A DNA stretch of 64,000 nucleotides from Escherichia coli (GTDB taxonomy: Bacteria; Pseudomonadota; Gammaproteobacteria; Enterobacterales; Enterobacteriaceae): assembly GCF_041248615.1 (NCBI RefSeq), contig NZ_CP158426.1; one strand, 5' to 3'. This document shows, one piece after another, positions 1,917-23,532 of the stretch. Positions within the stretch are counted from its first letter, which is position 1. Every line of letters starts with the position of its first letter. Under the pieces are notes generated by a model. That model did no database searches, had not been told where the DNA came from, and saw nothing but the letters and a program-made list of their open reading frames with translations. The translations under genes and the position numbers were made by a program.

Positions 1917-2513
1917 TCAGTGGGAGTGGTGGCTGGAGTTTTCGCCATCAGACAACATACTGCCCGTGGCATGGGCATTCCCTTTAATCTCGATATTGCC
2001 ATGGATGGTCGCGGTAACACCTTCACCACCAGAACCCGCCATGCCTCCTTCGTAAATCAGCTTACCCCTGACACGCAGATCTCCGGTAAGTTCGGTTTCC
2101 GGTGCGTCAATCGTGGCTTTCTGTGTTTTCAATACCACATCAGCACCACACTCAATGACAATATGCTCAATGCCGCCCCGGATGATCAGAGTGTGCGTCT
2201 TCCGGTTGTAGCTGTACTCTGCACCATCAGCAAACCGGGTTCCCCGGATATTTTTGTCACTGAACGGTGGTTTATCGACGTCTGAATACACCGCGCCCAG
2301 AATAACACCATCCTCGCCGTTGGCATCGAGCAGCACCTCAACCTGCTCCCCCACGTCAGGGAGCCAGTAATCTTTGTTATCCTGGGTATTGCGCTGCAGC
2401 ACGTTAAGCCAGTTTGTGCGCAGGTTATCGCATTCAGGCAGACGAACGCGGGCCTGAACCCTGTCGGCATCAACGGCACTGACCGTACCGACCTGACGAG
2501 TGACACCAGTCAT
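1917..2513 (-). CDS. Baseplate assembly/spike protein V-like
   Basis: 198-aa ORF with Gly-rich C-terminus; position between D-like and W-like genes. Confidence 0.75.
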   Translation of the reverse strand: MTGVTRQVGTVSAVDADRVQARVRLPECDNLRTNWLNVLQRNTQDNKDYWLPDVGEQVEVLLDANGEDGVILGAVYSDVDKPPFSDKNIRGTRFADGAEYSYNRKTHTLIIRGGIEHIVIECGADVVLKTQKATIDAPETELTGDLRVRGKLIYEGGMAGSGGEGVTATIHGNIEIKGNAHATGSMLSDGENSSHHSH

Positions 2514-3664
2514 TTTTTCTTCTCCTTAATCACCGTCGATGTACTGCCATCCGGGTGATAAACCGTGAGTTTCTGAGTTTTTTGTTTTTTCCCTCTTGTG
2601 ACTGGCCCCCGTGCCACTTCCAGCTCTGTGGTGTAGCCGCTGTTACGGTCAAACGCATGGCGGGCAGTGGTTATGAGCCATGGCCCGGATAACTGCCCAA
2701 AACCCACCAGTTCAATTTTGTTGCCTGCTGTCAGTTGAGGTGTTCCCGTCAGCGTCAGGGAGCCGTTCTGCTGGTATTCGTTATGTCTGGCCAGTGCTGA
2801 ATCCGCTTTAATCCGGGCACTGTCCGGGTCGCTGACGCGGCTGTTAACTTTAAGTGAGTCAGCGCTGGTAACCTTACCACCTTTGAGCTTTTTGTCGCTT
2901 TCACGGGTACCACCATCAGCTTCGTAGACGATCAGTTTTTTACTGCTGCTTTTCTGGTGTTTTACCTTTGCAGATTTATAGACCCGGTTGATGGTGTCAC
3001 GCAGGGAAAAGCGGGCCACATCCTGCGGTTTTAACTGCCTGACCGGCTCCTGACTGCGCAGTGTGGCCAGATGAGAAAAAATCAGCTGGTCACTGACCAC
3101 TTTCACTGCATAACCATACTCGCTGGCCAGCCGGCGCAGAAAACCCACGTCGGTTTCAGCATACTGGGTCACCCGGTCGATTCTGATGGACTCAATGCTG
3201 CCCACCAGTTTCAGCCGGTGCTTTCTGGCAATCCGCCCCGCAACAGCTGCCAGCGTGGTGTTCTCAAAACCACGACTGGTTTTAGTCCGCAGGGCACTGT
3301 TAACCGAGGTGGCCACCCCACGGATAGAAACAACGGAAGCGGGCGAACTCACTTCGATCTCGTCTATAGAGAACGTACCGCAGGACAGCAGCTTCTCGCC
3401 CTGATAGCCCATTTTCAGCGTCAGCGTGTCACCCTTGCCCGGATACCACTTATCCAGCCAGCGGCCATCGGTGTCGTCCAGCTCCACCTCAATGGTATCG
3501 GACTCATTTTTGATGTTATCGCTCCAGGTCACACGGGTGACATAAGGCGCGATATCAGAGGTGATGTTTTTCTGCAGATACCACAGAGTGAACACCGGTG
3601 TCAGCACATCGCTGACGCCGGTTAACGCTGATGTGACTTGCGCAGTGCTGTTTATCTCAGCCAT
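2510..3664 (-). CDS. Tail protein D-like (late control D / Mu P family)
   Basis: 384-aa ORF downstream of tape measure/U/X-like genes; recalled similarity to gpD family. Confidence 0.75.
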   Translation of the reverse strand: MAEINSTAQVTSALTGVSDVLTPVFTLWYLQKNITSDIAPYVTRVTWSDNIKNESDTIEVELDDTDGRWLDKWYPGKGDTLTLKMGYQGEKLLSCGTFSIDEIEVSSPASVVSIRGVATSVNSALRTKTSRGFENTTLAAVAGRIARKHRLKLVGSIESIRIDRVTQYAETDVGFLRRLASEYGYAVKVVSDQLIFSHLATLRSQEPVRQLKPQDVARFSLRDTINRVYKSAKVKHQKSSSKKLIVYEADGGTRESDKKLKGGKVTSADSLKVNSRVSDPDSARIKADSALARHNEYQQNGSLTLTGTPQLTAGNKIELVGFGQLSGPWLITTARHAFDRNSGYTTELEVARGPVTRGKKQKTQKLTVYHPDGSTSTVIKEKKK

Positions 3665-15596: not shown

Positions 15597-17073
15597 GCAG
15601 ACGCCCCCAGATATTTGCCACAAAGAGAATGCGGGCCAGCCGCTCCTGCAGATCGTCCGTGTTCATCTGAGGGTAGAGCTCCGCCAGTTCGCCCAGCAGC
15701 TCAGACGGGTTAACCCCATTTTCGACCCGCCTGAACAGAGGTGCCAGGACGGGTTCCAGCGTGCCATTTAACGCGCCTCCGTTCATCAGAATGTCCAGCG
15801 CGTCGTCAAGCTGCTGCTGAGCCTGAATATCAGCATCAATCGCCTCGGCAAATGACAGCGGCAGCATGTTATTCTGGCGTTCCGACGGTGGTGTCTCGTC
15901 AATATCGCCGTCCTGCAGTTGGTACTCACGCTTGAAGTACTGCGGGGTCAGACGCAGACCCGCCCGGGTGAGTTTTTCGTCGCGGGTGGCACGGGTGTCA
16001 TCAATGGCCTCCTGTTCCCACATGGCCCAGACCGGACACGGCACATCGCCGAAGTTCAGGGTGACCACCGTTCTGATGACCTGATTCACTGCCGCCTGAA
16101 TGATGTCCGCATCCGCATCGCGGATATCAGCCGTTACCTCCAGCCCGGCCTGTGCAGAGGCCTTGTTACTGTTCGCTTCCGTGGTCTGATTCTGACCGAG
16201 TAATGCAATGGAGATCTCACTGCGTGACAGTGTGATCAGCTCGCGAAATACCTCGCTGCTGTCCGCCTTGCCATCCGCTGCTTTGAGTTCGATGCTGCTG
16301 TCATCAGGGATGGCGGCCACCGCGTCCTCCACCATCTGCTCCATGGAGTCCAGCAGTTTTTCAATCTCTGCATCATTTGCACCCCTCGGGTGCTTACCGA
16401 TGACCCAGGGGGAGCCAAACTTTTCGGCAAAGCGGAGCCAGAATTTCATCCCGCCTTTCTTGAAGGCGACCGGCCAGAAGCACATGGACAGGTCCGGGAA
16501 ACCGTAAGGATTGTCATACGAGGCATCCTGTGCCGGCACCACGAATTTTGACGGTGACAGCAGCTCACCCTCCACACCCGCATCACGAGCCCGGAAGCGC
16601 AGGCAGTTGTCCGTATCAAACTGAAACCACTCAGGCGGTTTGCCGACAATATCCGTCACCGTCCACGCCCTGACCGAACGGCCCCACATGATTTCACAGG
16701 GCTGATACCCGTAGAGCACGGCATCGCTCATCTCACCGATGATGCGGGACAGATCCAGATCGTCGAGCATGTCGCGGATGAAACGGAAGACCCGGGCAGA
16801 AGCGTGACCGCGCTCCAGTCCACGCTCCAGTGATTTGAGCGCTGCTTTACGTCTGCGGATACAGCCCCCGACCAGCGGGTCGGTGCGCAGTTCGCGGTAG
16901 ATACGGATATCCCGTCCCTGAGCCTTGAGAATGGGATCAGGATTGGGCAGATACATGCCCAGAGCGTAAAAATCAATGGCTCGACTGCGGGAGGCAATCT
17001 GCGCGGTCAGTGATTTTTTGGGTTCGGCGAACGCCACGAACTCATCGGGTGAAACCCAGATGCCTTTTGCCAT
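15577..17073 (-). CDS. Portal protein, Mu gp29-like (DUF935)
   Basis: 498-aa ORF directly after the terminase large subunit. Confidence 0.8.
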   Translation of the reverse strand: MAKGIWVSPDEFVAFAEPKKSLTAQIASRSRAIDFYALGMYLPNPDPILKAQGRDIRIYRELRTDPLVGGCIRRRKAALKSLERGLERGHASARVFRFIRDMLDDLDLSRIIGEMSDAVLYGYQPCEIMWGRSVRAWTVTDIVGKPPEWFQFDTDNCLRFRARDAGVEGELLSPSKFVVPAQDASYDNPYGFPDLSMCFWPVAFKKGGMKFWLRFAEKFGSPWVIGKHPRGANDAEIEKLLDSMEQMVEDAVAAIPDDSSIELKAADGKADSSEVFRELITLSRSEISIALLGQNQTTEANSNKASAQAGLEVTADIRDADADIIQAAVNQVIRTVVTLNFGDVPCPVWAMWEQEAIDDTRATRDEKLTRAGLRLTPQYFKREYQLQDGDIDETPPSERQNNMLPLSFAEAIDADIQAQQQLDDALDILMNGGALNGTLEPVLAPLFRRVENGVNPSELLGELAELYPQMNTDDLQERLARILFVANIWGRLHERDNG

Positions 17074-18389
17074 CAGAATCCCTCCAGCATGCGGGCGGCT
17101 TCACGGCGGCGGCGCGAACGCGCCACTACCGGCCCTGACGGTCCGTCAGTGGCGTTAATAGCCAGAAAACAGGCCCATGTACGGTCGGCGTGACCTGCTG
17201 CATCACTTTCCGCCACAAAGCGAGGCGCTCCGGTAGGTCCGGTGATCTTACGGAGCTTATGCAGATCACTGCGCAGTACCACATCTCCCGCGGGAATACG
17301 CAGGCGGCGGTCCTCAAACATCTCCCTGCCACGGGTCGCGAGGGTGAGCTTGTTCGGGCTGTTAAATATCACCCCCTCCACACGACTCCTGCCGTGGCGC
17401 TCCTGAGCATCTTCCACAGGCTTTTCCCCCATTCCTGTCTGATCCATACAGCAGCGCAGCACGCGATAACGGAAAAATACGTCATCCAGCAAAGCATCCT
17501 GCTCAGCAAAGGTGGCCCGTTTACGGGTGATGATTTCCCGGGTCCAGTAGACATCCCCCACCTGTTCAAGCACCCAGATGACAAACAGGTCATTACGAAC
17601 AGCAATATCCACCCCCACAAAGCAGGGGCCACCCGTATAGTGCACCGGCAGCCCGGCAGCATCGTGCTCCACGCCGTCAATCAGTTCAAACGTCAGCCAG
17701 GCCGATGCCTCATCCAGCCACTTCAGTTCAAACTCCTGTGCCCAGGCGTCATCATCGTTGAGCGCCTGTCGCATCTGTGCAATATCACGCGGAAGGCCGT
17801 CGCGCACGGCACGGTAAATATCCACGATGTGACGTGACCAGACATTTTCAAGGGCGTTGCTGGTCATCAGTTCATAAAACTTGTTTCCCTTGCCGTTCGG
17901 CGTCGATGTCACACGCAGTCTGTAGCCGTTGGAAATGACCGGAAACAGAGCGGTCCAGATTTTGCGACTGTCGGCATGGAAGGCGAACTCATCCAGAAAA
18001 ACGTTAGCCGCAAACCCACGGGCCGTGTCGGCATTGGCCGGCAGGGCCGTGATACGGGAGCCACCGGGTAACTCCACCTCAAGCATGGTATAGCGTTCGC
18101 CACTTTCGGCCCTGTAATAACTCTCCATTTCACGGGCTGCCATCCGGTAGGCGCTGCAGTGTTTTTTCACCCCCTCCACCATGGCTTCTTTTGCCTGGCG
18201 CTCCCCGCGCGAGAGGATCACCCAGCGTGTACGTCCCCCTGAGGCCTCCGTTTCAAAACAGTCATCAACCAGCTCCAGCGTGGTGGTGAACGTCTTGCCC
18301 GTCTGACGGGCAAACATACCAATCTTGAAACGGGCACGATCCAGAAACCACGACTGCTGATAGGGATACAGCTGAATGGCCGCTGTCAT
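17073..18389 (-). CDS. Terminase large subunit, Mu gp28-like
   Basis: 438-aa ORF with ATPase-like N-terminus (FARQTGKT) upstream of the portal gene. Confidence 0.8.
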   Translation of the reverse strand: MTAAIQLYPYQQSWFLDRARFKIGMFARQTGKTFTTTLELVDDCFETEASGGRTRWVILSRGERQAKEAMVEGVKKHCSAYRMAAREMESYYRAESGERYTMLEVELPGGSRITALPANADTARGFAANVFLDEFAFHADSRKIWTALFPVISNGYRLRVTSTPNGKGNKFYELMTSNALENVWSRHIVDIYRAVRDGLPRDIAQMRQALNDDDAWAQEFELKWLDEASAWLTFELIDGVEHDAAGLPVHYTGGPCFVGVDIAVRNDLFVIWVLEQVGDVYWTREIITRKRATFAEQDALLDDVFFRYRVLRCCMDQTGMGEKPVEDAQERHGRSRVEGVIFNSPNKLTLATRGREMFEDRRLRIPAGDVVLRSDLHKLRKITGPTGAPRFVAESDAAGHADRTWACFLAINATDGPSGPVVARSRRRREAARMLEGF

Positions 18390-18940: not shown

Positions 18941-19248
18941 TCACTCCAGTACTTTTCCGGGCGGGCAATACCCGGGCCGCATTCCACGGTGTATTCCACA
19001 ATATCCACACCAAGGCGACTCAGATCGGCAAACCAGTCACCGGAAGGTCTCTTCTCCAGCTCCACCATTTTGCGATCTGCCAGATAATCAAGCTCCCGGC
19101 GCAGCTCCAGTTGCGTGGTGTCCGGGTAGATGGCGCGGGACACTTCCAGCAGCAACGTCTCGCTGGCGGTGTAAGGGCGGGTTTTGTTAAGGGCAACCAG
19201 CAGACTCCAGCGCAGGGATTCACGGCGTACCCGGGTAATATCGACCAT
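18937..19248 (-). CDS. Hypothetical phage protein
   Basis: 103-aa ORF translationally coupled within the late operon. Confidence 0.5.
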   Translation of the reverse strand: MVDITRVRRESLRWSLLVALNKTRPYTASETLLLEVSRAIYPDTTQLELRRELDYLADRKMVELEKRPSGDWFADLSRLGVDIVEYTVECGPGIARPEKYWSE

Positions 19249-19574
19249 TATTGACCTCCGGTATTGCGGTACTGCTGTACCACTTCCAGTTTGTTGTAAA
19301 GCGCGTCCAGTTTGGCCTCGATGACTGTCTGGCCACGGATATAATCCTCGCGACGGACATAATTCAGCGGTAAATCCGCTTTAAATCGCATCAATTCTTT
19401 TTCCAGCTCGCCCCAACTGGAGGCGGACTGCTGCAGTGACTGCTCAAGAGAGGCAAAACGTGCAGCCTGACGTTCCTCCGCTTTACTGAACAGCCATTTG
19501 GCCATACCGCCAACAAAGCTCATGAAGGTGATGAGAAAGCCCACCACCGTCCAGAATTCAACCTGCAGTGTCAT
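19248..19574 (-). CDS. Membrane protein (DUF2730-like), lysis-associated
   Basis: 108-aa ORF with N-terminal transmembrane segment following the spanin gene. Confidence 0.55.
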   Translation of the reverse strand: MTLQVEFWTVVGFLITFMSFVGGMAKWLFSKAEERQAARFASLEQSLQQSASSWGELEKELMRFKADLPLNYVRREDYIRGQTVIEAKLDALYNKLEVVQQYRNTGGQ

Positions 19575-20224
19575 TTCTGTAATCCTTCCCGTTCATCCAG
19601 CAACGCGTTTATCTGGTTCCGCCAGCGACGACATTGTCCTGCGTTGTCGATGATGTTGGCGAGAACGTCACGCTGGGAGACACCCGAATCGCGTAACCGG
19701 GTATCAGCGGTTTCAGGTTGCCCGGTCGCTGCGCCAGTGCCGGTGCCAGCGGTGGCAGTTGCGTCTGAATGACCGGTGTCGACGGATGCGTTGTCATATC
19801 CGAGTGCGGCGTTGTACTGGCGCACGAAACCGCGAGTAAACACGCACTCAATGGGATGGCTCTTACCTTTTTCATCAATCCAGCGCTGTGTGACATCGTT
19901 AATTTGCCCCTGTAGTTGTTTGTTCCGGCTCTCCAGTTGAGCAATCTGCTCAAGGTAACTGGCTTCAGCCCGTTGCCCGGCGGCTACCTGCTCCTGATAC
20001 CGTTTTGCCCATGCTCGCAATGCAGCGTTCTCAAGCATTGCCTGCTCCGTTTTGTATGTGTCGAATGCTGACTGCAACTCACTGATCGCCTTATCGCCGT
20101 TGCGCGTGGCGTTTTCATGCCCGCTTTTGTAGCCCAGGTAATAAAGTCCAATCAGAAAAGCATTTATGAGCACTGCCAGCAGCAGACTGCGCCACGGCAG
20201 ATTTTTTAGCAGGTTAGTCCACAC
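19571..20224 (-). CDS. i-spanin (Rz-like) of the Mu-like lysis cassette
   Basis: 217-aa ORF with N-terminal TM helix and coiled-coil body; a lipoprotein ORF is embedded in another frame. Confidence 0.7.
   Translation of the reverse strand: MWTNLLKNLPWRSLLLAVLINAFLIGLYYLGYKSGHENATRNGDKAISELQSAFDTYKTEQAMLENAALRAWAKRYQEQVAAGQRAEASYLEQIAQLESRNKQLQGQINDVTQRWIDEKGKSHPIECVFTRGFVRQYNAALGYDNASVDTGHSDATATAGTGTGAATGQPETADTRLRDSGVSQRDVLANIIDNAGQCRRWRNQINALLDEREGLQK
19609..19875 (-). CDS. o-spanin (Rz1-like lipoprotein) embedded in the i-spanin gene
   Basis: Embedded ORF with MKKVRAIPLSACLLAVSCAS signal/lipobox and Pro-rich mature region. Confidence 0.65.
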   Translation of the reverse strand: MKKVRAIPLSACLLAVSCASTTPHSDMTTHPSTPVIQTQLPPLAPALAQRPGNLKPLIPGYAIRVSPSVTFSPTSSTTQDNVVAGGTR

Positions 20225-20948
20225 AGCTGCCGCCCCCCCATGTCAGATAACGGGGGGCCAGTTCGTGCAGGATGCGCTGCGGATAATGACGGTTCTCCCG
20301 CCAGCTGGCAGCATTGCGTCCGGCATTCACCGTGGCGACATGTCCGAACCAGCGCTGACTGTCCAGCCCCAGATTTGCGGCGAGCCGCTGGTCACGACGC
20401 ACCCAGCCCGGGCCACCGTTATAGCCCGACAGTGTCATGGCCATACGCTCGCAGTCACTGGCGGCGCTGATGCGCTGCCACAGCCAGCGGTCATAGCTGA
20501 CCAGCGCCCGGATGGCCCATGCCGGATTAAACGGCTCACGACTGCTCAGCGCCGGCATCAACTGGCTTATCCAGTCAGCGGTGGCGGGCATAAACTGCGC
20601 CAGCCCCTGAGCGCCCACCGGCGAGACCGCATCAGGCCGCCAGCCGCTTTCCTGATGCAGTTGCGCGGCGAAATCGGCCACCGGCGCAGACAGCCCCCAT
20701 TCAAGCCGGGCATTACGGATCACATCATCGCGATACTGCAGCGCAGCCTGCGGAGGCTGCGCTGCGCGGGCCTGACTGAAGAAGCCGCCACACCAGAGCA
20801 ACATTGCGACAAAGAATACCCATGCCATATGAACCAGAAAGGTCCCGACACGGACTGACAGGCGTTCGGTTCTGATGAAGACCAGAAAGGCTTCGAAAGC
20901 CAGTTTCAGGGACATGCATACAATCCAGGTGCTCTGTGGCCAGTTCAT
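20214..20948 (-). CDS. Endolysin, lytic transglycosylase (SLT domain) with N-terminal membrane/signal segment
   Basis: 244-aa ORF; hydrophobic N-terminus followed by an SLT-like region (QESGWRPDAVSPVGAQGLAQFMP). Confidence 0.75.
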   Translation of the reverse strand: MNWPQSTWIVCMSLKLAFEAFLVFIRTERLSVRVGTFLVHMAWVFFVAMLLWCGGFFSQARAAQPPQAALQYRDDVIRNARLEWGLSAPVADFAAQLHQESGWRPDAVSPVGAQGLAQFMPATADWISQLMPALSSREPFNPAWAIRALVSYDRWLWQRISAASDCERMAMTLSGYNGGPGWVRRDQRLAANLGLDSQRWFGHVATVNAGRNAASWRENRHYPQRILHELAPRYLTWGGGSCVD

Positions 20949-20950
20949 GA

Positions 20951-21301
20951 TTAAAGCCCCATCGCAACAGCCAGACAGACAGCTGCAACAATCAGTGCAC
21001 GGCGGATTAACGCAGCAGAAAAAACCAGGTGAAGGCCGGTCTGTACGGGCCAGCGCCCCTCAGCCATGAGGCGCTCGTCATGCTTCAGGTACTGCCCCGG
21101 ACGGGCCTTCGGGAAGAGTGAGCGGTCCAGCCAGTAGCCGAGCACGGCGGCGAGGGAGATGAGAGAGAGCTTGTACACCACCACCGGCAACTGCTGGGGC
21201 GAGACCAGCGCGATGATGAGGAGTAGCAGCACGGCCGCAACAAGCCATCCACGCAGGCGGGTTTTTTGTACGTCAGCGATAAGGGAAGTGAATGGTTTCA
21301 T
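20951..21301 (-). CDS. Putative holin (multi-TM small membrane protein)
   Basis: 116-aa ORF with hydrophobic segments, first gene of the leftward late operon, RBS ggaga upstream. Confidence 0.6.
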   Translation of the reverse strand: MKPFTSLIADVQKTRLRGWLVAAVLLLLIIALVSPQQLPVVVYKLSLISLAAVLGYWLDRSLFPKARPGQYLKHDERLMAEGRWPVQTGLHLVFSAALIRRALIVAAVCLAVAMGL

Positions 21302-21432
21302 GAAAATGTCTCCTTGTTGTGTGGAGACAGCATGGCAAAAGCGTGGCGCGGAGGATTTTAAAGCGCGTTAAGAGAGAGGCGTGTTCGGGGTATGCAGAAT
21401 ACACGCTGGATCACTCACAAAGGAGATACAGA

Positions 21433-21981
21433 ATGACAGTCACACCGAAGCCGACCATCACCGTCAGAGTGTCCGGGCCTGTGGGCAGCGGTAAAAGTTA
21501 CGTTCTGACGCGTATAAAAGAGATGGTGAAAAAGGAATTTGGAAAAAGCGTCATTGTCGATGCCGCAGTTGTGGACGACGAGCGTATCTGTCGGACGAAT
21601 GAGCTGCTTCAGGAGCAACTCATGAAGGTGTTACGCAAACTCACCGGTCAGACAACAAAATGTTTTTCAGCCCCGGAGTACGGGATACAGGAACACATCC
21701 CGGTGAACATGCCCCCCGTTAACCAGCCTCCCCGGTTCTTCGACGAATACATTCTGACACCGGAAAATAAAGCTGAGCATGAAGAGATCAAAGCGGCGTT
21801 GTTCCGGGAAATCAGGAAGATTGCTGAAATGCAGCTGGAGGGCGGGCTGGACAGAGTGATGGCGAGAGGAGAATGGGAATCGCTGTTTGAAAGAGTTTCC
21901 CCGGAATTGCTTCCCCTCGCACTGGCTATCGGGATTATGCAGACAGCGGATAAACCTCACTTACGTTCATTAAACACGTAA
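21433..21981 (+). CDS. Small P-loop NTPase-like protein of unknown function
   Basis: ATG at 21433 preceded by aaaggag; Walker A-like GPVGSGKS near N-terminus and possible Walker B VIVDAAVVDDE. Confidence 0.6.
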   Translation: MTVTPKPTITVRVSGPVGSGKSYVLTRIKEMVKKEFGKSVIVDAAVVDDERICRTNELLQEQLMKVLRKLTGQTTKCFSAPEYGIQEHIPVNMPPVNQPPRFFDEYILTPENKAEHEEIKAALFREIRKIAEMQLEGGLDRVMARGEWESLFERVSPELLPLALAIGIMQTADKPHLRSLNT

Positions 21982-22361
21982 CGCATAATCCGGGATACGC
22001 ATTCAGCGATGACTGCATTTTCACCGGTTTTTACTGCATCCAGAAGTGACTCTTTAAATGGTACGGGCCGGGGCTGCAGAAAGGTCGGCATGGCATTGAG
22101 CAGACAGAGCGTTTTTTCCGTGAGGACGACATCAGCCGCTCCCACAGCCAGCAACTGAGAGTAACGAATATAGCTGTTATCCCGAAGCCATATCAGCGTA
22201 TCAATAAAATACCGGCACTTTTTCTGATCGTGATCAACCTGGTCCGGGATATCGAAAAAACCAGAATAAATCAAAACCTGAGGAGCCGGATGCGTGTTCA
22301 GTAATCGGCAGAATATTTTGCCGGTGAGTACATAAAAATCATCATTTAAGGAGTGCATCAT
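21957..22361 (-). CDS. Hypothetical protein (134 aa)
   Basis: ORF in an otherwise uncovered gap, convergent with the P-loop gene; weak RBS. Confidence 0.4.
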   Translation of the reverse strand: MMHSLNDDFYVLTGKIFCRLLNTHPAPQVLIYSGFFDIPDQVDHDQKKCRYFIDTLIWLRDNSYIRYSQLLAVGAADVVLTEKTLCLLNAMPTFLQPRPVPFKESLLDAVKTGENAVIAECVSRIMRYVFNERK

Positions 22362-22767: not shown

Positions 22768-23532
22768 ATGAAAATGCAGACATTACCCATCGTTCCATGG
22801 ATTGGTGGCAAACGTCGCCTGGCAAAACACATCCTGCCGCTGTTTCCGGCGCATGAATGTTACGTGGAGCCGTTCTGCGGCGCAGCAGCGCTCTATTTTC
22901 TTAAGACACCTGGTAAGCTCGAAGTCATTAACGATATCAATGGTGAACTGGTAAATCTGTATCGGGTGGTAAAACATCATCTGGAAGAATTTGTCCGCCA
23001 GTTCAAATGGGCGCTGGTCAGCCGGCAGATCTACAAATGGCTGCAGATCACCCCGACAGAAACACTGACGGATATCCAGCGTGCAGCACGGTTCTACTAC
23101 CTCCAGAAGCAGGCGTTTGGCGGCAAGGTGGCAGAGCACAGCTTCGGCACCTCCACCACATCCCCGCCACGCTTCAACCTGCTGCGTATCGAGGAAGAAC
23201 TGTCAGCGGCACACCTGCGGCTTTCCAGAACGGTGATAGAACACATGGACTGGCAACAGTGCATTGAGCGCTATGACCGTCCGCACACGCTGTTCTACTG
23301 TGACCCGCCGTATCTGGGTACAGAAGGCTATGGTGTGGATTTTCCTGAAGGGAACTACTCGCGGCTGGCAGAGCTGGCCCGGTGCATCAGAGGAAAGATG
23401 ATAATTTCGGTGAACGACATCCCGCAGATGCGCGAGGTGTTCACTGGACTGAACATACAGACAGTGAACATCAACTACAGTCTGGCAGGCAAATCAACTC
23501 CACGCCGTGAGCTGGTGATCTGCAATTTCTAA
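22768..23532 (+). CDS. DNA adenine methyltransferase, Dam family (orphan, phage-borne)
   Basis: 254-aa ORF with DPPY catalytic motif (FYCDPPY) and Dam-like N-terminus (PIVPWIGGKRRL). Confidence 0.85.
   Translation: MKMQTLPIVPWIGGKRRLAKHILPLFPAHECYVEPFCGAAALYFLKTPGKLEVINDINGELVNLYRVVKHHLEEFVRQFKWALVSRQIYKWLQITPTETLTDIQRAARFYYLQKQAFGGKVAEHSFGTSTTSPPRFNLLRIEEELSAAHLRLSRTVIEHMDWQQCIERYDRPHTLFYCDPPYLGTEGYGVDFPEGNYSRLAELARCIRGKMIISVNDIPQMREVFTGLNIQTVNINYSLAGKSTPRRELVICNF

What the first reader, a model, noticed from the sequence alone, without database searches (positions are those of the whole stretch)
19248..21301. Mu-like lysis module with SLT-type endolysin and embedded o-spanin
The module consists of a putative holin, a lytic transglycosylase endolysin with a hydrophobic N-terminus, an i-spanin with an embedded lipoprotein o-spanin, and a further small membrane protein. 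The start of the endolysin is ambiguous (20948 or an internal Met near 20828), which affects whether it is signal-anchored.
Basis: partly seen in the sequence, partly recalled or inferred. Interest (0 to 1): 0.3.

Follow-up and report, generated by a model that had tools for sequence, protein, structure and literature searches.

The report
BcepMu-type prophage lysis cassette
This is the ordinary cell-bursting gene set of a BcepMu-like transposable prophage in E. coli, with one unexpected detail: the wall-degrading enzyme carries at its front a two-helix membrane piece that related Pseudomonas phages encode as a separate small gene.

Summary
Window 19248-21301 (minus strand) encodes five tightly coupled genes. 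They are a Holin_2-3 holin, a 244-aa SLT lytic transglycosylase, an i-spanin with a +1-frame embedded o-spanin that RefSeq does not annotate, and a 108-aa membrane-tethered coiled-coil protein. The set matches BcepMu gp21-gp25 gene for gene. The window is an E. coli chromosome, and the cassette occurs in 637 of 5,426 complete E. coli genomes.

The endolysin start is 20948, not Met41 (20828). The MxWPQ N-terminus is conserved across Enterobacterales, codons 1-40 are under purifying selection, and Met41 is clade-specific. Either start keeps the hydrophobic export segment.

Two points are new. Residues 1-57 form a two-helix hairpin homologous to a free-standing 52-aa membrane protein of JBD25-like Pseudomonas phages. 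The hairpin is followed by a conserved AxA|A signal-peptidase-type site. I infer Sec export and probable cleavage, with SAR-like tethering as the main rival.

The 108-aa protein sits in the slot that a true DUF2730 (Mu releasin family) protein holds in JBD25, but it shows no detectable homology to DUF2730.

Overall this is a known kind of module with a modestly interesting export variant. None of the mechanism has been tested experimentally.

The parts
20951..21301 (-). Holin, 116 aa, with two or three hydrophobic segments (about residues 17-35, 38-58 and 89-115)
   Evidence: Pfam PF13272 Holin_2-3 E=1.7e-41. phrog_1528 holin E=8.7e-51. 58% identity to BcepMu gp21. Hydropathy. Strong Shine-Dalgarno AAGGAG, -8.5 kcal/mol.
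20214..20948 (-). Endolysin precursor, 244 aa: N-terminal hairpin, AxA site and family-1 lytic transglycosylase domain
   Evidence: Pfam SLT PF01464 55.8 bits against a cut-off of 21.3. phrog_669 endolysin E=1.5e-67. PDB profile hit to Slt70 E=1.4e-8. Foldseek top hits are all MltF/MltE/MltC, weak E values but probability up to 0.99. Start 20948 supported.
20778..20948 (-). Hairpin module, residues 1-57: conserved MxWPQ N-terminus, helix 1 (7-25; 20874-20930), K/R-rich loop (26-33), helix 2 (34-57; 20778-20849) ending in WCGGFF
   Evidence: Hydropathy and dG sums. AF2 helices 3-26 and 30-53. pN/pS 0.34-0.35 for codons 1-40. A profile of 42 enterobacterial pre-sequences hits the free-standing JBD25 52-aa protein end to end at 32.8 bits, against a maximum of 13.7 in 2,000 shuffles, and at E=5.6e-8 among 2,726 ORF segments.
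20763..20771 (-). Ala60-Arg61-Ala62, a putative signal peptidase I site with predicted cleavage between Ala62 and Ala63
   Evidence: In 147 unique homologues, position -1 is Ala in 146 and -3 is A/S/V/G in 142. Position -2 is hypervariable (R, N, H, C, D, S, A and others) and +1 is Ala in 146. AF2 pLDDT is below 50 at residues 58-62. Cleavage itself is inferred, not shown.
20373..20660 (-). SLT catalytic domain (Pfam match to residues 97-192); Glu100 is encoded at 20649-20651
   Evidence: E100 and S101 are invariant in alignment A1. The GLAQFMP and SGYNGG motifs are conserved.
19571..20224 (-). i-spanin (Rz-like), 217 aa, GTG start, N-terminal TMD (about 13-31), periplasmic coiled coil, two periplasmic Cys
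   Evidence: phrog_1403 Rz-like spanin E=1.8e-88. Hydropathy. 27% identity to BcepMu gp23, E=1e-14. G-rich Shine-Dalgarno, -10.6 kcal/mol.
19609..19896 (-). o-spanin (Rz1-like), 95 aa, fully embedded in the +1 frame of the i-spanin. Signal is MSHSAGLMKKVRAIPLSACLLAVSC, with the lipidated Cys25 at 19822-19824. The mature part is Pro/Ser/Thr-rich. Alternative start at 19875.
   Evidence: The open +1 frame with the same signal and lipobox is conserved in nearly all related loci that could be analysed. Relatives have canonical LVSC, LASC or VASC at the second Cys. 36% identity to BcepMu gp24 Rz1, E=6e-12. It spans 0.50-0.94 of the i-spanin length, as is typical for embedded spanins (PMC6139136). 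The upstream Met is the only one conserved in L062, L074 and L076, and it has the better Shine-Dalgarno (-5.7 against -3.1). Not annotated in RefSeq.
19248..19574 (-). p108, the BcepMu gp25-like protein: N-terminal TMD (about 7-25, predicted N-out/C-in) plus a cytoplasmic helical domain with the invariant motif YVRREDYxRGQxVIEAKLD
   Evidence: phrog_462 E=6.6e-35. 46% identity to BcepMu gp25 and 40% to B3 ORF28. Family alignments A2 and A4. 1,114 cluster representatives at E<=1e-3. It holds the slot that a true DUF2730 protein holds in JBD25.

Best explanation
This is the late lysis cassette of a BcepMu-like (Bcepmuvirus) transposable prophage in an E. coli chromosome.

Steps shown by homology and synteny: a PF13272 holin, a family-1 lytic transglycosylase endolysin, an embedded two-component spanin (inner-membrane Rz-like protein plus outer-membrane lipoprotein Rz1-like protein), and a gp25-like membrane-tethered protein. 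All are translationally coupled and lie directly upstream of the gp26/TerS/TerL genes.

Steps shown by comparative sequence analysis: translation of the endolysin starts at 20948. Its first 57 residues are a two-helix membrane hairpin homologous to a free-standing 52-aa protein of JBD25-like phages.

Steps inferred: helix 2 acts as a Sec export signal that puts the SLT domain into the periplasm without help from the holin. Host signal peptidase I then cuts at Ala60-Arg61-Ala62|Ala63. This leaves the hairpin in the inner membrane as a separate small protein and releases a soluble SLT domain of about 20 kDa. Lysis is timed by the holin, which collapses the membrane potential and unleashes the pre-positioned enzyme. 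The spanin complex then destroys the outer membrane.

Likelihoods: module identity about 0.95; start at 20948 about 0.9; holin-independent export about 0.85; cleavage rather than tethering about 0.5. The confidence of 0.5 given for this explanation refers to the whole chain including the cleavage step.
For: Identity and synteny. Gene-for-gene collinearity with BcepMu gp21-gp28 comes, with 58/62/27/36/46/57/47% identity for holin, SLT, Rz, Rz1, gp25, gp26 and TerS. The closest phages, PhiKM (classified Bcepmuvirus) and KP12, share about 90% DNA identity. The window matches NZ_LT599825.1 at 100%, within a prophage carrying a DDE transposase, ExeA, Gam, Mor and P2-like tail genes.

Start codon. 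MxWPQ(I/V) is the first ATG after the holin stop in essentially all of 80 related loci and in homologues from at least 8 genera. pN/pS of codons 1-40 is 0.34-0.35. Met41 is absent outside the window's own clade. The anti-SD pairing energy is -4.7 for 20948, against -3.1 for Met12 and -3.5 for Met41. The 2-nt junction between holin stop and ATG is the same as in BcepMu.

Hairpin. There are two marginally hydrophobic segments separated by a K/R loop, and AF2 predicts helices 3-26 and 30-53. The architecture is kept even though the window-type sequence is a non-homologous-looking replacement and not a frameshift. The hairpin is homologous to JBD25 p52. That protein is present as a separate gene in 48 Pseudomonas phage records and ends at GGFFG*, exactly where the c-region of the fused forms begins.

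Cleavage. The (-3,-1) pattern is conserved while -2 is hypervariable. One-segment relatives (BcepMu, L075-78, L081) look like classical n-h-c signal peptides with the same site. Similarity to BcepMu gp22 begins at residue 62.

Muralytic nature..
Against: No signal-peptide or topology predictor (SignalP, DeepTMHMM) was available. Topology rests on hydropathy, the positive-inside rule and a moderate AF2 model (mean pLDDT 67.5).

The dG scale was recalled from memory, as were the P1 and R21 SAR control sequences used there and the identification of Slt70 Glu478 as the catalytic residue.

The hydrophobic segments are only marginally hydrophobic, in the range of proven SAR domains. Chamblee et al. 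classify the N-termini of the related Pseudomonas SLT endolysins as SAR domains (PMC9239132).

Cleavage after the second helix of a hairpin is unusual. The conserved AxA-AQPP could instead be conserved as part of the mature fold. A freely soluble periplasmic transglycosylase made before holin triggering would need some unexplained restraint.

I know of no experimental data for any member of this endolysin clade.
Confidence: 0.5

Rival explanations
1. The cassette is the same, but the endolysin is not cleaved. It stays tethered to the inner membrane, inactive, by the hairpin or by a SAR-like helix 2. It is released when the holin, acting as a pinholin, depolarises the membrane. The 108-aa gp25-like protein may help as a functional analogue of the Mu releasin.
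For: Both helices have summed dG of about 0-5 kcal/mol, like the proven SAR domains of Mu, P1 and phage 21. Helix 2 contains a GG pair, and in many homologues it falls below a Kyte-Doolittle mean of 1.5. Related Pseudomonas SLT endolysins are called SAR endolysins and are paired with DUF2730 proteins (PMC9239132). p108 sits in the exact slot that a true DUF2730 protein holds in JBD25. It also has the same predicted architecture: an N-out TMD followed by a cytoplasmic coiled coil.
Against: The G/A/S/T content of the helices is 0.21-0.42, against 0.53-0.63 in proven SAR domains. The conserved (-3,-1) site with a hypervariable -2 is hard to explain if it is never cleaved. Releasing a two-helix hairpin from the bilayer has no precedent that I know of. 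The hairpin exists as a separate protein in JBD25-like phages, so it does not need to be attached to the enzyme. T4 RI is a precedent for a presumed SAR domain that turned out to be a cleaved signal peptide (PMC8385771). p108 shows no detectable homology to DUF2730.
Confidence: 0.35
2. Translation starts at the internal Met41 (20828). This would give a 204-aa protein with a single N-terminal signal or anchor segment, as in BcepMu gp22. The upstream 120 nt would then be non-coding or a gene-calling artefact.
For: Met41 aligns with the start of BcepMu gp22. MAWVFFVAMLLWCGGFFSQARA resembles a signal peptide.
Against: Met41 is absent in most homologues, and one member of the window's own clade has Val there (L020). 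Codons 1-40 are under purifying selection in this frame. The MxWPQ N-terminus is conserved across genera. There is no Shine-Dalgarno sequence at a usable distance, with pairing at the background level of -3.5 kcal/mol. A Met41 start would leave no charged n-region. The upstream segment is homologous to a real protein, JBD25 p52.
Confidence: 0.05
3. The hydrophobic N-terminus is not an export signal. The enzyme accumulates in the cytoplasm and needs large holin holes to reach the wall, as in the canonical lambda-type pathway.
For: A holin gene lies immediately upstream. Export has not been demonstrated.
Against: Every homologue examined carries at least one hydrophobic segment followed by an AxA-type site directly before the catalytic domain, whatever the N-terminal variant. 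This includes classical n-h-c signal peptides in the short forms.
Confidence: 0.04

Closest known systems
Burkholderia phage BcepMu lysis cassette gp21-gp25 (NC_005882)
   Same: The gene order is identical: PF13272 holin, SLT endolysin with a hydrophobic N-terminus starting 2 nt after the holin stop, Rz with a +1-embedded Rz1, a gp25 membrane protein, then gp26/TerS/TerL. All five proteins are homologous at 27-62% identity.
   Different: BcepMu gp22 is 203 aa and has a single signal-peptide-like segment (MRVLIAFVVALLGAAAPVAA|Q). It has no hairpin, and no hairpin homologue is present anywhere in the BcepMu region that was fetched (12 kb, gp13-gp33). The window protein has about 41 extra N-terminal residues.
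Pseudomonas phages B3 (NC_006548) and JBD25 (JX495042): Mu-like siphophage cassettes
   Same: Both share the holin family, the SLT catalytic domain (59-61% identity), an Rz-like spanin, and gp26/gp27 downstream. B3 has the same fused hairpin-AxA-SLT architecture when started at MGIPQ (243 aa), and it has a phrog_462 protein.
   Different: In JBD25 and 47 further records the hairpin is a separate 52-aa gene. The endolysin there has its own signal (MKRLLTLGLLGLLSAC...), and the p108 slot holds a true DUF2730 protein. Both phages also have an extra ORF of about 70 aa between the endolysin and the spanin.
Phage Mu lysis system: gp22 SAR endolysin, gp23/gp23.1 spanins, gp25 releasin (PMC9239132)
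   Same: It is a transposable phage whose lysis genes lie directly upstream of gp26/gp27/gp28. The endolysin has an N-terminal membrane segment. A small N-out/C-in membrane protein with a cytoplasmic helical domain lies between the spanins and gp26.
   Different: The Mu endolysin is a muramidase, not an SLT. Mu has no holin. Mu gp25 is DUF2730 (phrog_736), whereas p108 is phrog_462 and shows no significant similarity to it (hhalign probability 5-12%).
Pinholin / SAR-endolysin systems (phage 21, P1 Lyz)
   Same: The endolysin is exported by Sec without the holin, through an N-terminal hydrophobic segment of marginal hydrophobicity. The holin is then needed only to depolarise the membrane (PMC6139136).
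   Different: Classical SAR domains are single, G/A/S/T-rich helices with no cleavage site. Here there are two helices, a lower G/A/S/T content and a conserved AxA site.
Secreted endolysins with cleavable signal peptides (for example Lys44 of Oenococcus phage fOg44, cited in PMC2628397); T4 RI (PMC8385771)
   Same: These have an N-terminal signal with a signal peptidase I site. The enzyme is placed outside the membrane before the holin acts.
   Different: The known examples have a single N-terminal signal peptide and are mostly from Gram-positive hosts. Here the signal is preceded by an extra helix, so cleavage would also produce a two-helix membrane peptide.

Membership tests
BcepMu-type (Bcepmuvirus) lysis cassette | Gene order of holin, SLT endolysin, Rz with embedded Rz1, gp25-like, gp26, TerS (Mu gp27 family), TerL, inside a transposable prophage | tested here: met
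   The prophage carries a DDE transposase, ExeA, Gam, gp16/GemA-like and Mor genes. PhiKM, at about 90% DNA identity, is classified as Bcepmuvirus.
BcepMu-type (Bcepmuvirus) lysis cassette | Each protein is homologous to its BcepMu counterpart | tested here: met
   BLASTP E values from 7e-40 to 6e-12 for holin, SLT, Rz, Rz1 and gp25.
Holin_2-3 (PF13272) | Score above the Pfam gathering threshold over the full-length profile; a small protein with 2-3 TMDs next to the endolysin | tested here: met
   141.2 bits against a cut-off of 27, profile positions 1-106 of 106. Three hydrophobic segments.
Holin_2-3 (PF13272) | Forms membrane lesions and times lysis | not testable with these tools
   This needs expression and energy-poison triggering assays. 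I know of no experimental work on this family.
Family-1 lytic transglycosylase (SLT, PF01464) | Domain score above threshold and the catalytic Glu-Ser motif | tested here: met
   55.8 bits against a cut-off of 21.3. HQES(100-101) aligns with Slt70 RQES(478-479). E100 and S101 are invariant in A1. Foldseek top hits are MltF, MltE and MltC.
Family-1 lytic transglycosylase (SLT, PF01464) | Cleaves MurNAc-GlcNAc bonds with formation of 1,6-anhydroMurNAc | not testable with these tools
   A biochemical assay is required.
Two-component spanin, embedded architecture | i-spanin with an N-terminal TMD and a periplasmic helical domain | tested here: met
   TMD at about residues 13-31. phrog_1403 Rz-like spanin E=1.8e-88.
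Two-component spanin, embedded architecture | o-spanin with a lipoprotein signal and lipobox Cys, a non-Asp residue at +2, and a gene wholly inside the i-spanin gene in another frame | tested here: met
   The signal is MSHSAGLMKKVRAIPLSACLLAVSC|AS. The lipobox AVSC deviates from [LVI][ASTVI][GAS]C only at -3, and relatives carry LVSC, LASC or VASC at that position. Non-canonical lipoboxes such as AWAC have been validated (PMC6139136). The gene is in the +1 frame and spans 0.50-0.94 of Rz. No LipoP or SignalP run was possible.
Two-component spanin, embedded architecture | At least one periplasmic Cys for intermolecular disulfides | tested here: met
   The i-spanin has Cys126 and Cys198. The mature o-spanin has none beyond the lipidated Cys.
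SAR endolysin | A single N-terminal, weakly hydrophobic, G/A/S/T-rich TMD | tested here: inconclusive
   Hydrophobicity is marginal, like the SAR controls. However, there are two segments, and their G/A/S/T fraction is 0.21-0.42 against 0.53-0.63 in the controls.
SAR endolysin | The signal is not cleaved; the enzyme is membrane-tethered and then released on depolarisation | not testable with these tools
   Sequence argues against it, because an AxA|A site is conserved. Only fractionation and Western blots can decide.
Sec signal peptide cleaved by signal peptidase I | An h-region followed by a short c-region with small residues at -1 and -3 | tested here: met
   The site is ...LLWCGGFF-SQARA|AQPP. 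Position -1 is Ala in 146 of 147 homologues, -3 is small in 142 of 147, and -2 is variable.
Sec signal peptide cleaved by signal peptidase I | A positively charged n-region at the extreme N-terminus | tested here: not met
   In the window protein the h-region is preceded by another helix and a K/R loop, not by the N-terminus. Short-form relatives (L075-78, L081, BcepMu) do have a classical n-region.
DUF2730 / Mu gp25 releasin | Match to PF10805 | tested here: not met
   p108 gives no hit even at E<=10. None of 22 homologues hit, and 2 of 83 hit only at E>=0.025 among random coiled-coil matches. The controls do hit: Mu gp25 at 2.5e-13 and the JBD25 protein at 4.6e-9. UniRef labels two homologues as DUF2730.
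DUF2730 / Mu gp25 releasin | Profile-profile homology to Mu gp25 | tested here: not met
   hhalign probability is 12% (A2 vs A3) and 5% (A4 vs A3), covering only the TMD region. BLASTP against the JBD25 DUF2730 protein gives E=2.4. Profile A3 covers only close Mu relatives.
DUF2730 / Mu gp25 releasin | [quoted passage not shown] | tested here: met
   Hydropathy and the positive-inside rule. The gene is the third (counting Rz1) after the endolysin. It holds the same slot as the DUF2730 gene of JBD25.
DUF2730 / Mu gp25 releasin | Required for release of the endolysin | not testable with these tools
   Genetic deletion and complementation are required.

The most novel reading that the evidence does not exclude
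The 244-aa protein may be a natural two-in-one precursor. A small two-helix inner-membrane lysis protein, which is a separate gene in JBD25-like phages, would be made fused to the endolysin and then cut off by host signal peptidase I. One translation event would then deliver stoichiometric amounts of a membrane regulator (an antiholin, holin partner or tether) and a periplasmic transglycosylase. Separately, the phrog_462 protein (p108, BcepMu gp25) could be a second family, unrelated in sequence, doing the releasin-type job that DUF2730 does in Mu.
Probability: 0.3. Interest if true: 0.6.

Novelty: new member of a known kind. Interest (0 to 1): 0.35.

Why it matters
As a module this is routine. 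It is the lysis cassette of a BcepMu/SalMu-type prophage, and related cassette DNA occurs in about 12% of complete E. coli genomes.

It has three practical uses. It fixes the endolysin start codon. It adds a missing o-spanin gene to the annotation. It also flags the PHROG label 'lipoprotein' for the gp25-like family as probably wrong.

The modest scientific interest lies in how the endolysin reaches the cell wall. The same catalytic domain occurs in three forms: with a plain signal peptide (BcepMu), with a fused two-helix hairpin (E. coli, Salmonella, B3), or next to a free-standing hairpin gene (JBD25). This natural fusion/fission series offers a direct way to ask two questions. What does the small membrane protein do in lysis timing? 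Are these enzymes SAR-tethered or signal-peptidase-processed?

The alternation of phrog_462 and DUF2730 in one genomic slot likewise offers a test of how general the 'releasin' step is among transposable phages.

Tried and rejected
1. Frameshift origin. I asked whether the window-type N-terminus is a frameshifted version of the common enterobacterial one. It is not. Nucleotide alignment and three-frame translation show a diverged replaced segment flanked by conserved ends.

2. Internal start. Met12 and Met41 were rejected on conservation, pN/pS and Shine-Dalgarno strength.

3. p108 as a DUF2730 member. Pfam at E<=10, member-by-member scans of 22 and 83 homologues, two hhalign runs and BLASTP against the JBD25 DUF2730 protein gave no support. 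The library-wide profile search returned only family members in its top 150.

4. First Cys of the o-spanin signal (LSAC at Cys19) as the lipidation site. I rejected it in favour of Cys25. The signal would be too short from the MKK start. In addition, relatives and BcepMu place the canonical lipobox and the following S/T/P-rich stretch at the second Cys.

5. A second +1-frame ORF inside Rz (MKTPRATAIRRSVSC...). It has no hydrophobic core and is not Pro-rich, so it is spurious.

6. Promoter and terminator consensus scan. Nothing exceeded the shuffle expectation. Late promoters here are probably activator-dependent.

7. Hairpin homologue elsewhere. None was found in the BcepMu region, the Mu region or the short-form loci. 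The Mu gp19 region gave only E=0.33.

8. Literature searches. I looked for endolysins with two N-terminal TMDs and for further releasin families, and found nothing relevant. The 2004 BcepMu paper is not in the held library.

9. Foldseek on the AF2 model. It gave only weak E values (>=0.019). The hits are all lytic transglycosylases, but the model quality is moderate.

Full report
OBSERVATION

- 20951-21301, 116 aa
- 20214-20948, 244 aa
- 19571-20224, 217 aa, GTG start
- a +1-frame ORF embedded in the 217-aa gene and ending at 19609
- 19248-19574, 108 aa

The genes are packed for translational coupling. The holin stop is 2 nt from the next ATG. The following junctions are an 11-nt overlap, an ATGA overlap and a TAATG overlap.

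Family searches show these are real genes. Pfam gives Holin_2-3 (PF13272) at E=1.7e-41 and SLT (PF01464) at E=4e-15. PHROGs gives holin 8.7e-51, endolysin 1.5e-67, Rz-like spanin 1.8e-88 and phrog_462 6.6e-35.

CONTEXT

The window is 100% identical to E. coli chromosome NZ_LT599825.1. Related cassette DNA (>=80% identity over >=80% of the length) is present in 620-637 of 5,426 complete E. coli genomes.

The RefSeq annotation of the surrounding 40 kb shows a transposable prophage. It carries a DDE transposase, ExeA, Gam, a gp16 family protein, Mor, Mu-like head genes and P2-like tail genes. It runs from before window position 1 to about 33 kb.

The closest phages are Escherichia phage PhiKM, classified as Bcepmuvirus, and Klebsiella phage KP12, at 89-91% DNA identity.

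The region is collinear gene for gene with Burkholderia phage BcepMu gp21 (holin), gp22 (SLT endolysin), gp23/gp24 (Rz with embedded Rz1), gp25, gp26, TerS and TerL. Protein identities for the first seven are 58, 62, 27, 36, 46, 57 and 47%. 'Mu-like' is therefore correct in the broad sense, and 'BcepMu-like' is the precise description. Mu itself has a muramidase SAR endolysin, no holin and a DUF2730 releasin (PMC9239132).

THE ENZYME IS MURALYTIC

A profile of 27 homologues hits E. coli Slt70 (1sly) at E=1.4e-8. In that alignment window HQES(100-101) lies on Slt70 RQES(478-479), which I recall as the catalytic Glu-Ser pair. Glu100 and Ser101 are invariant, and the GLAQFMP and SGYNGG motifs are conserved.

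An AF2 model has mean pLDDT 67.5. Its Foldseek top hits are only lytic transglycosylases (MltF, MltE, MltC). The E values are weak (>=0.019), with probability up to 0.99.

THE START CODON

Four lines of evidence favour ATG 20948.
1. Across 80 related loci from IMG/VR and homologues from E. coli, Pantoea, Serratia, Salmonella, Pectobacterium, Dickeya, Arsenophonus and Morganella, the first ATG after the holin stop always opens with M-x-W-P-Q-(I/V).
2. Codons 1-40 are under purifying selection in this frame. pN/pS is 0.34 within the window's clade and 0.35 among the other long forms, compared with 0.18-0.21 for the catalytic body.
3. Met41 (20828) exists only in the window's own clade, and even there one member has Val.
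4. Anti-SD pairing is -4.7 kcal/mol for 20948. It is -3.1 for Met12 and -3.5 for Met41, which is the background level of -3.0 +/- 2.5.

In addition, the 2-nt junction between holin stop and ATG is the same as in BcepMu. Either start keeps the hydrophobic segment that abuts the catalytic domain.

THE N-TERMINUS IS A TWO-HELIX HAIRPIN

The N-terminus reads as follows:
- residues 7-25 are hydrophobic (TWIVCMSLKLAFEAFLVFI)
- residues 26-33 form a K/R-rich loop (RTERLSVR)
- residues 34-57 are hydrophobic (VGTFLVHMAWVFFVAMLLWCGGFF)
- the sequence continues SQARA|AQPP

Both segments are marginally hydrophobic. Summed apparent dG is about 0-5 kcal/mol across variants, using a scale recalled from memory. 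That range overlaps the proven SAR domains of Mu gp22, P1 Lyz and R21 (the last two sequences recalled from memory). The G/A/S/T content is lower, at 0.21-0.42 against 0.53-0.63.

AF2 predicts helices 3-26 and 30-53, with pLDDT below 50 at residues 58-62. The positive-inside rule puts the loop in the cytoplasm and both the N-terminus and the catalytic domain in the periplasm. This topology is an inference.

The window-type sequence of codons about 6-48 is unrelated in detail to the common enterobacterial version. It is not a frameshift of it. It is almost invariant within its clade, with pS 0.024 against 0.15-0.21 downstream, which suggests a recent replacement. The two-helix architecture is nevertheless retained.

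Other relatives have only one hydrophobic segment, and these look like classical n-h-c signal peptides. Examples are BcepMu MRVLIAFVVALLGAAAPVAA|Q, Pectobacterium/Brenneria-type MANRIRNNDPGTGLLLLLFILLLVGALDSDA|AQPP, and locus L081.

A CONSERVED SIGNAL-PEPTIDASE-TYPE SITE

In 147 unique homologues that carry the junction:
- position -1 is Ala in 146
- position -3 is A, S, V or G in 142
- position +1 is Ala in 146
- position -2 varies freely (R, N, H, C, D, S, A, Q, L, V, Y)

This is the signature expected of a site selected for signal peptidase I. It is hard to explain for a linker that is never processed. BLASTP similarity to BcepMu gp22 begins at residue 62. No signal-peptide predictor was available, so cleavage remains an inference.

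THE HAIRPIN IS A SEPARABLE MODULE

Pseudomonas phage JBD25 has a homologous cassette. It contains a PF13272 holin, an SLT endolysin with 61% identity in the catalytic part, an Rz-like spanin, and gp26 and gp27.

Between the JBD25 holin and endolysin lies a separate 52-aa gene: MGAPQIIWIVLAAVVLVTSYACDGLTNVISFKQRVFDVIAMTALVWWGGFFG*. The JBD25 endolysin starts at an ATGA overlap with its own signal, MKRLLTLGLLGLLSACQPAFA....

A profile built from 42 enterobacterial endolysin pre-sequences matches this 52-aa protein end to end at 32.8 bits. Two thousand composition-preserving shuffles gave a mean of 0.7, an SD of 1.6 and a maximum of 13.7. Among 2,726 stop-to-stop segments the match has E=5.6e-8.

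The separate gene is present in 48 Pseudomonas phage records, many of them from phages isolated from plaques, so it is not a sequencing artefact (Table S1 of PMC9239132).

Phage B3 has the fused form once its endolysin is started at MGIPQ. That gives 243 aa, with ...LLLLAGGFFSSAKA|DEIP at the junction.

The free-standing protein ends exactly where the c-region of the fused forms begins. No hairpin homologue was found in the BcepMu region that was fetched or in the short-form loci, so the hairpin appears to be an accessory element.

THE SPANINS

The 217-aa protein has an N-terminal TMD, a long helical periplasmic part and two Cys residues.

The embedded +1 ORF is open and conserved in nearly all related loci that could be analysed. 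Its signal is M(M)S.[SN]AGL.KK.RAIPLSACLL(A/L)(V/A)SC|(A/S)(S/N)TTP.

Relatives carry the canonical lipoboxes LVSC, LASC or VASC at the second Cys, and BcepMu Rz1 has LSAC|GTPPP. The lipidated residue in the window is therefore Cys25 (19822-19824), in the lipobox AVSC. The +2 residue is Ala, which implies sorting to the outer membrane.

The conserved start is the upstream ATG at 19896. The second Met is missing in L062, L074 and L076, and the upstream ATG has the better Shine-Dalgarno pairing (-5.7 against -3.1).

The gene spans 0.50-0.94 of the i-spanin length, as is typical for embedded spanins (PMC6139136). RefSeq does not annotate it.

THE 108-AA PROTEIN

It has an N-terminal TMD followed by K/R residues, which predicts an N-out/C-in topology. 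Its helical C-terminal domain carries the near-invariant motif YVRREDYxRGQxVIEAKLD.

It belongs to phrog_462 together with BcepMu gp25 and B3 ORF28. The family has 1,114 cluster representatives at 50% identity. The PHROG label 'lipoprotein' is unsupported, because the protein contains no Cys.

It occupies the same slot as Mu gp25, the DUF2730 releasin (PMC9239132). In JBD25 that slot holds a true DUF2730 protein, with PF10805 at E=4.6e-9.

Homology was tested and not found:
- Pfam gives no hit at E<=10
- 0 of 22 members hit, and 2 of 83 hit only at sub-threshold E values
- hhalign probability is 12% and 5%
- BLASTP against the JBD25 DUF2730 protein gives E=2.4

The two families are therefore positional and architectural alternates. 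A releasin-like role is a hypothesis, which I put at about 0.35, not a finding.

MECHANISM

Shown by homology: the parts list and its order.

Inferred: Sec-dependent, holin-independent export of the SLT domain by helix 2; probable signal peptidase I cleavage at Ala62|Ala63, which would leave the hairpin as a small membrane protein equivalent to JBD25 p52; the holin as timer through depolarisation or permeabilisation; and the spanin complex completing outer-membrane disruption.

The main rival is an uncleaved, SAR-like or hairpin-tethered enzyme released on depolarisation, possibly with help from p108 (confidence 0.35). It is supported by the marginal hydrophobicity of the helices. It is also supported by the classification of the related Pseudomonas enzymes as SAR endolysins (PMC9239132). 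It is weakened by the conserved cleavage-type site, by the separability of the hairpin, and by the T4 RI precedent of a presumed SAR domain that proved to be a cleaved signal peptide (PMC8385771).

NOVELTY AND SCORE

The cassette is a new member of a kind known since the description of BcepMu, and as such it is ordinary.

I found no description of the fused or free hairpin series, or of the phrog_462/DUF2730 alternation, in the held literature. That search is limited, and the original BcepMu and B3 papers could not be read.

Interest is 0.35. The finding is useful for annotation and offers a tidy experimental handle on endolysin export control, but it is not a surprise to specialists.

Noticed in passing
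window 19609-19896 (-): The o-spanin gene embedded in R2K29_RS22255 is not annotated in RefSeq NZ_LT599825.1. KP12 and PhiKM label the i-spanin 'putative lipoprotein' and also lack the embedded gene.
   Followed up: yes
window 20829-20948 (-), codons 1-40 of the endolysin: Within the window-type clade this segment is almost invariant at synonymous sites (pS 0.024), whereas the rest of the gene has pS 0.15-0.21. It is also unrelated in sequence to the common enterobacterial version. This points to a recently acquired or swept recombinant segment.
   Followed up: partly
L006 (phage B3) 2211-3005; L088 (JBD25) 2375-3004: The annotated start of B3 ORF25 gives 264 aa and overlaps the holin by 60 nt, which looks wrong. 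The MGIPQ start gives 243 aa. The JBD25-type endolysin's own signal contains a lipobox-like LLSAC, so it might be a lipoprotein rather than a SAR or Sec protein.
   Followed up: partly
window 19248-19574 (-); phrog_462: The PHROG and GenBank label 'lipoprotein' for this family (BcepMu gp25, B3 ORF28) is not supported, because the window protein contains no Cys. UniRef names two homologues (Dickeya, Brenneria) 'DUF2730' although Pfam PF10805 does not match them here.
   Followed up: yes
window 21319-21981 (+) and 21957-22361 (-): Two conserved phage genes of unknown function lie divergent from or adjacent to the holin. One is phrog_3787, with weak P-loop/AAA-like Pfam hits; RefSeq starts it at 21433. 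The other is phrog_2266. A Dam-type adenine methylase follows at 22768-23532. The 131-bp gap at 21302-21432 presumably holds the late lysis/head promoter, but no consensus sigma-70 site was found there.
   Followed up: no
window 33000-40000: Beyond the Mor end of the prophage lie a YadA-like pseudogene, remnants of a lambdoid tail-fibre/Lom region and an IS1414 transposase. The transposable prophage is therefore inserted next to, or inside, older prophage debris.
   Followed up: no
window 17073-18389 (-): The large terminase is 438 aa and only 24% identical to BcepMu gp28 (500 aa). KP12 has a 507-aa TerL at this position. The packaging gene is thus mosaic relative to close relatives.
   Followed up: no
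L005 (phage Mu) 960-1322, gp19: The hairpin profile gives a weak, non-significant hit (E=0.33, 9 bits) to the Mu gp19 membrane-protein region (QWPDFLSVVLLALLLW...). This is probably chance.
   Followed up: no
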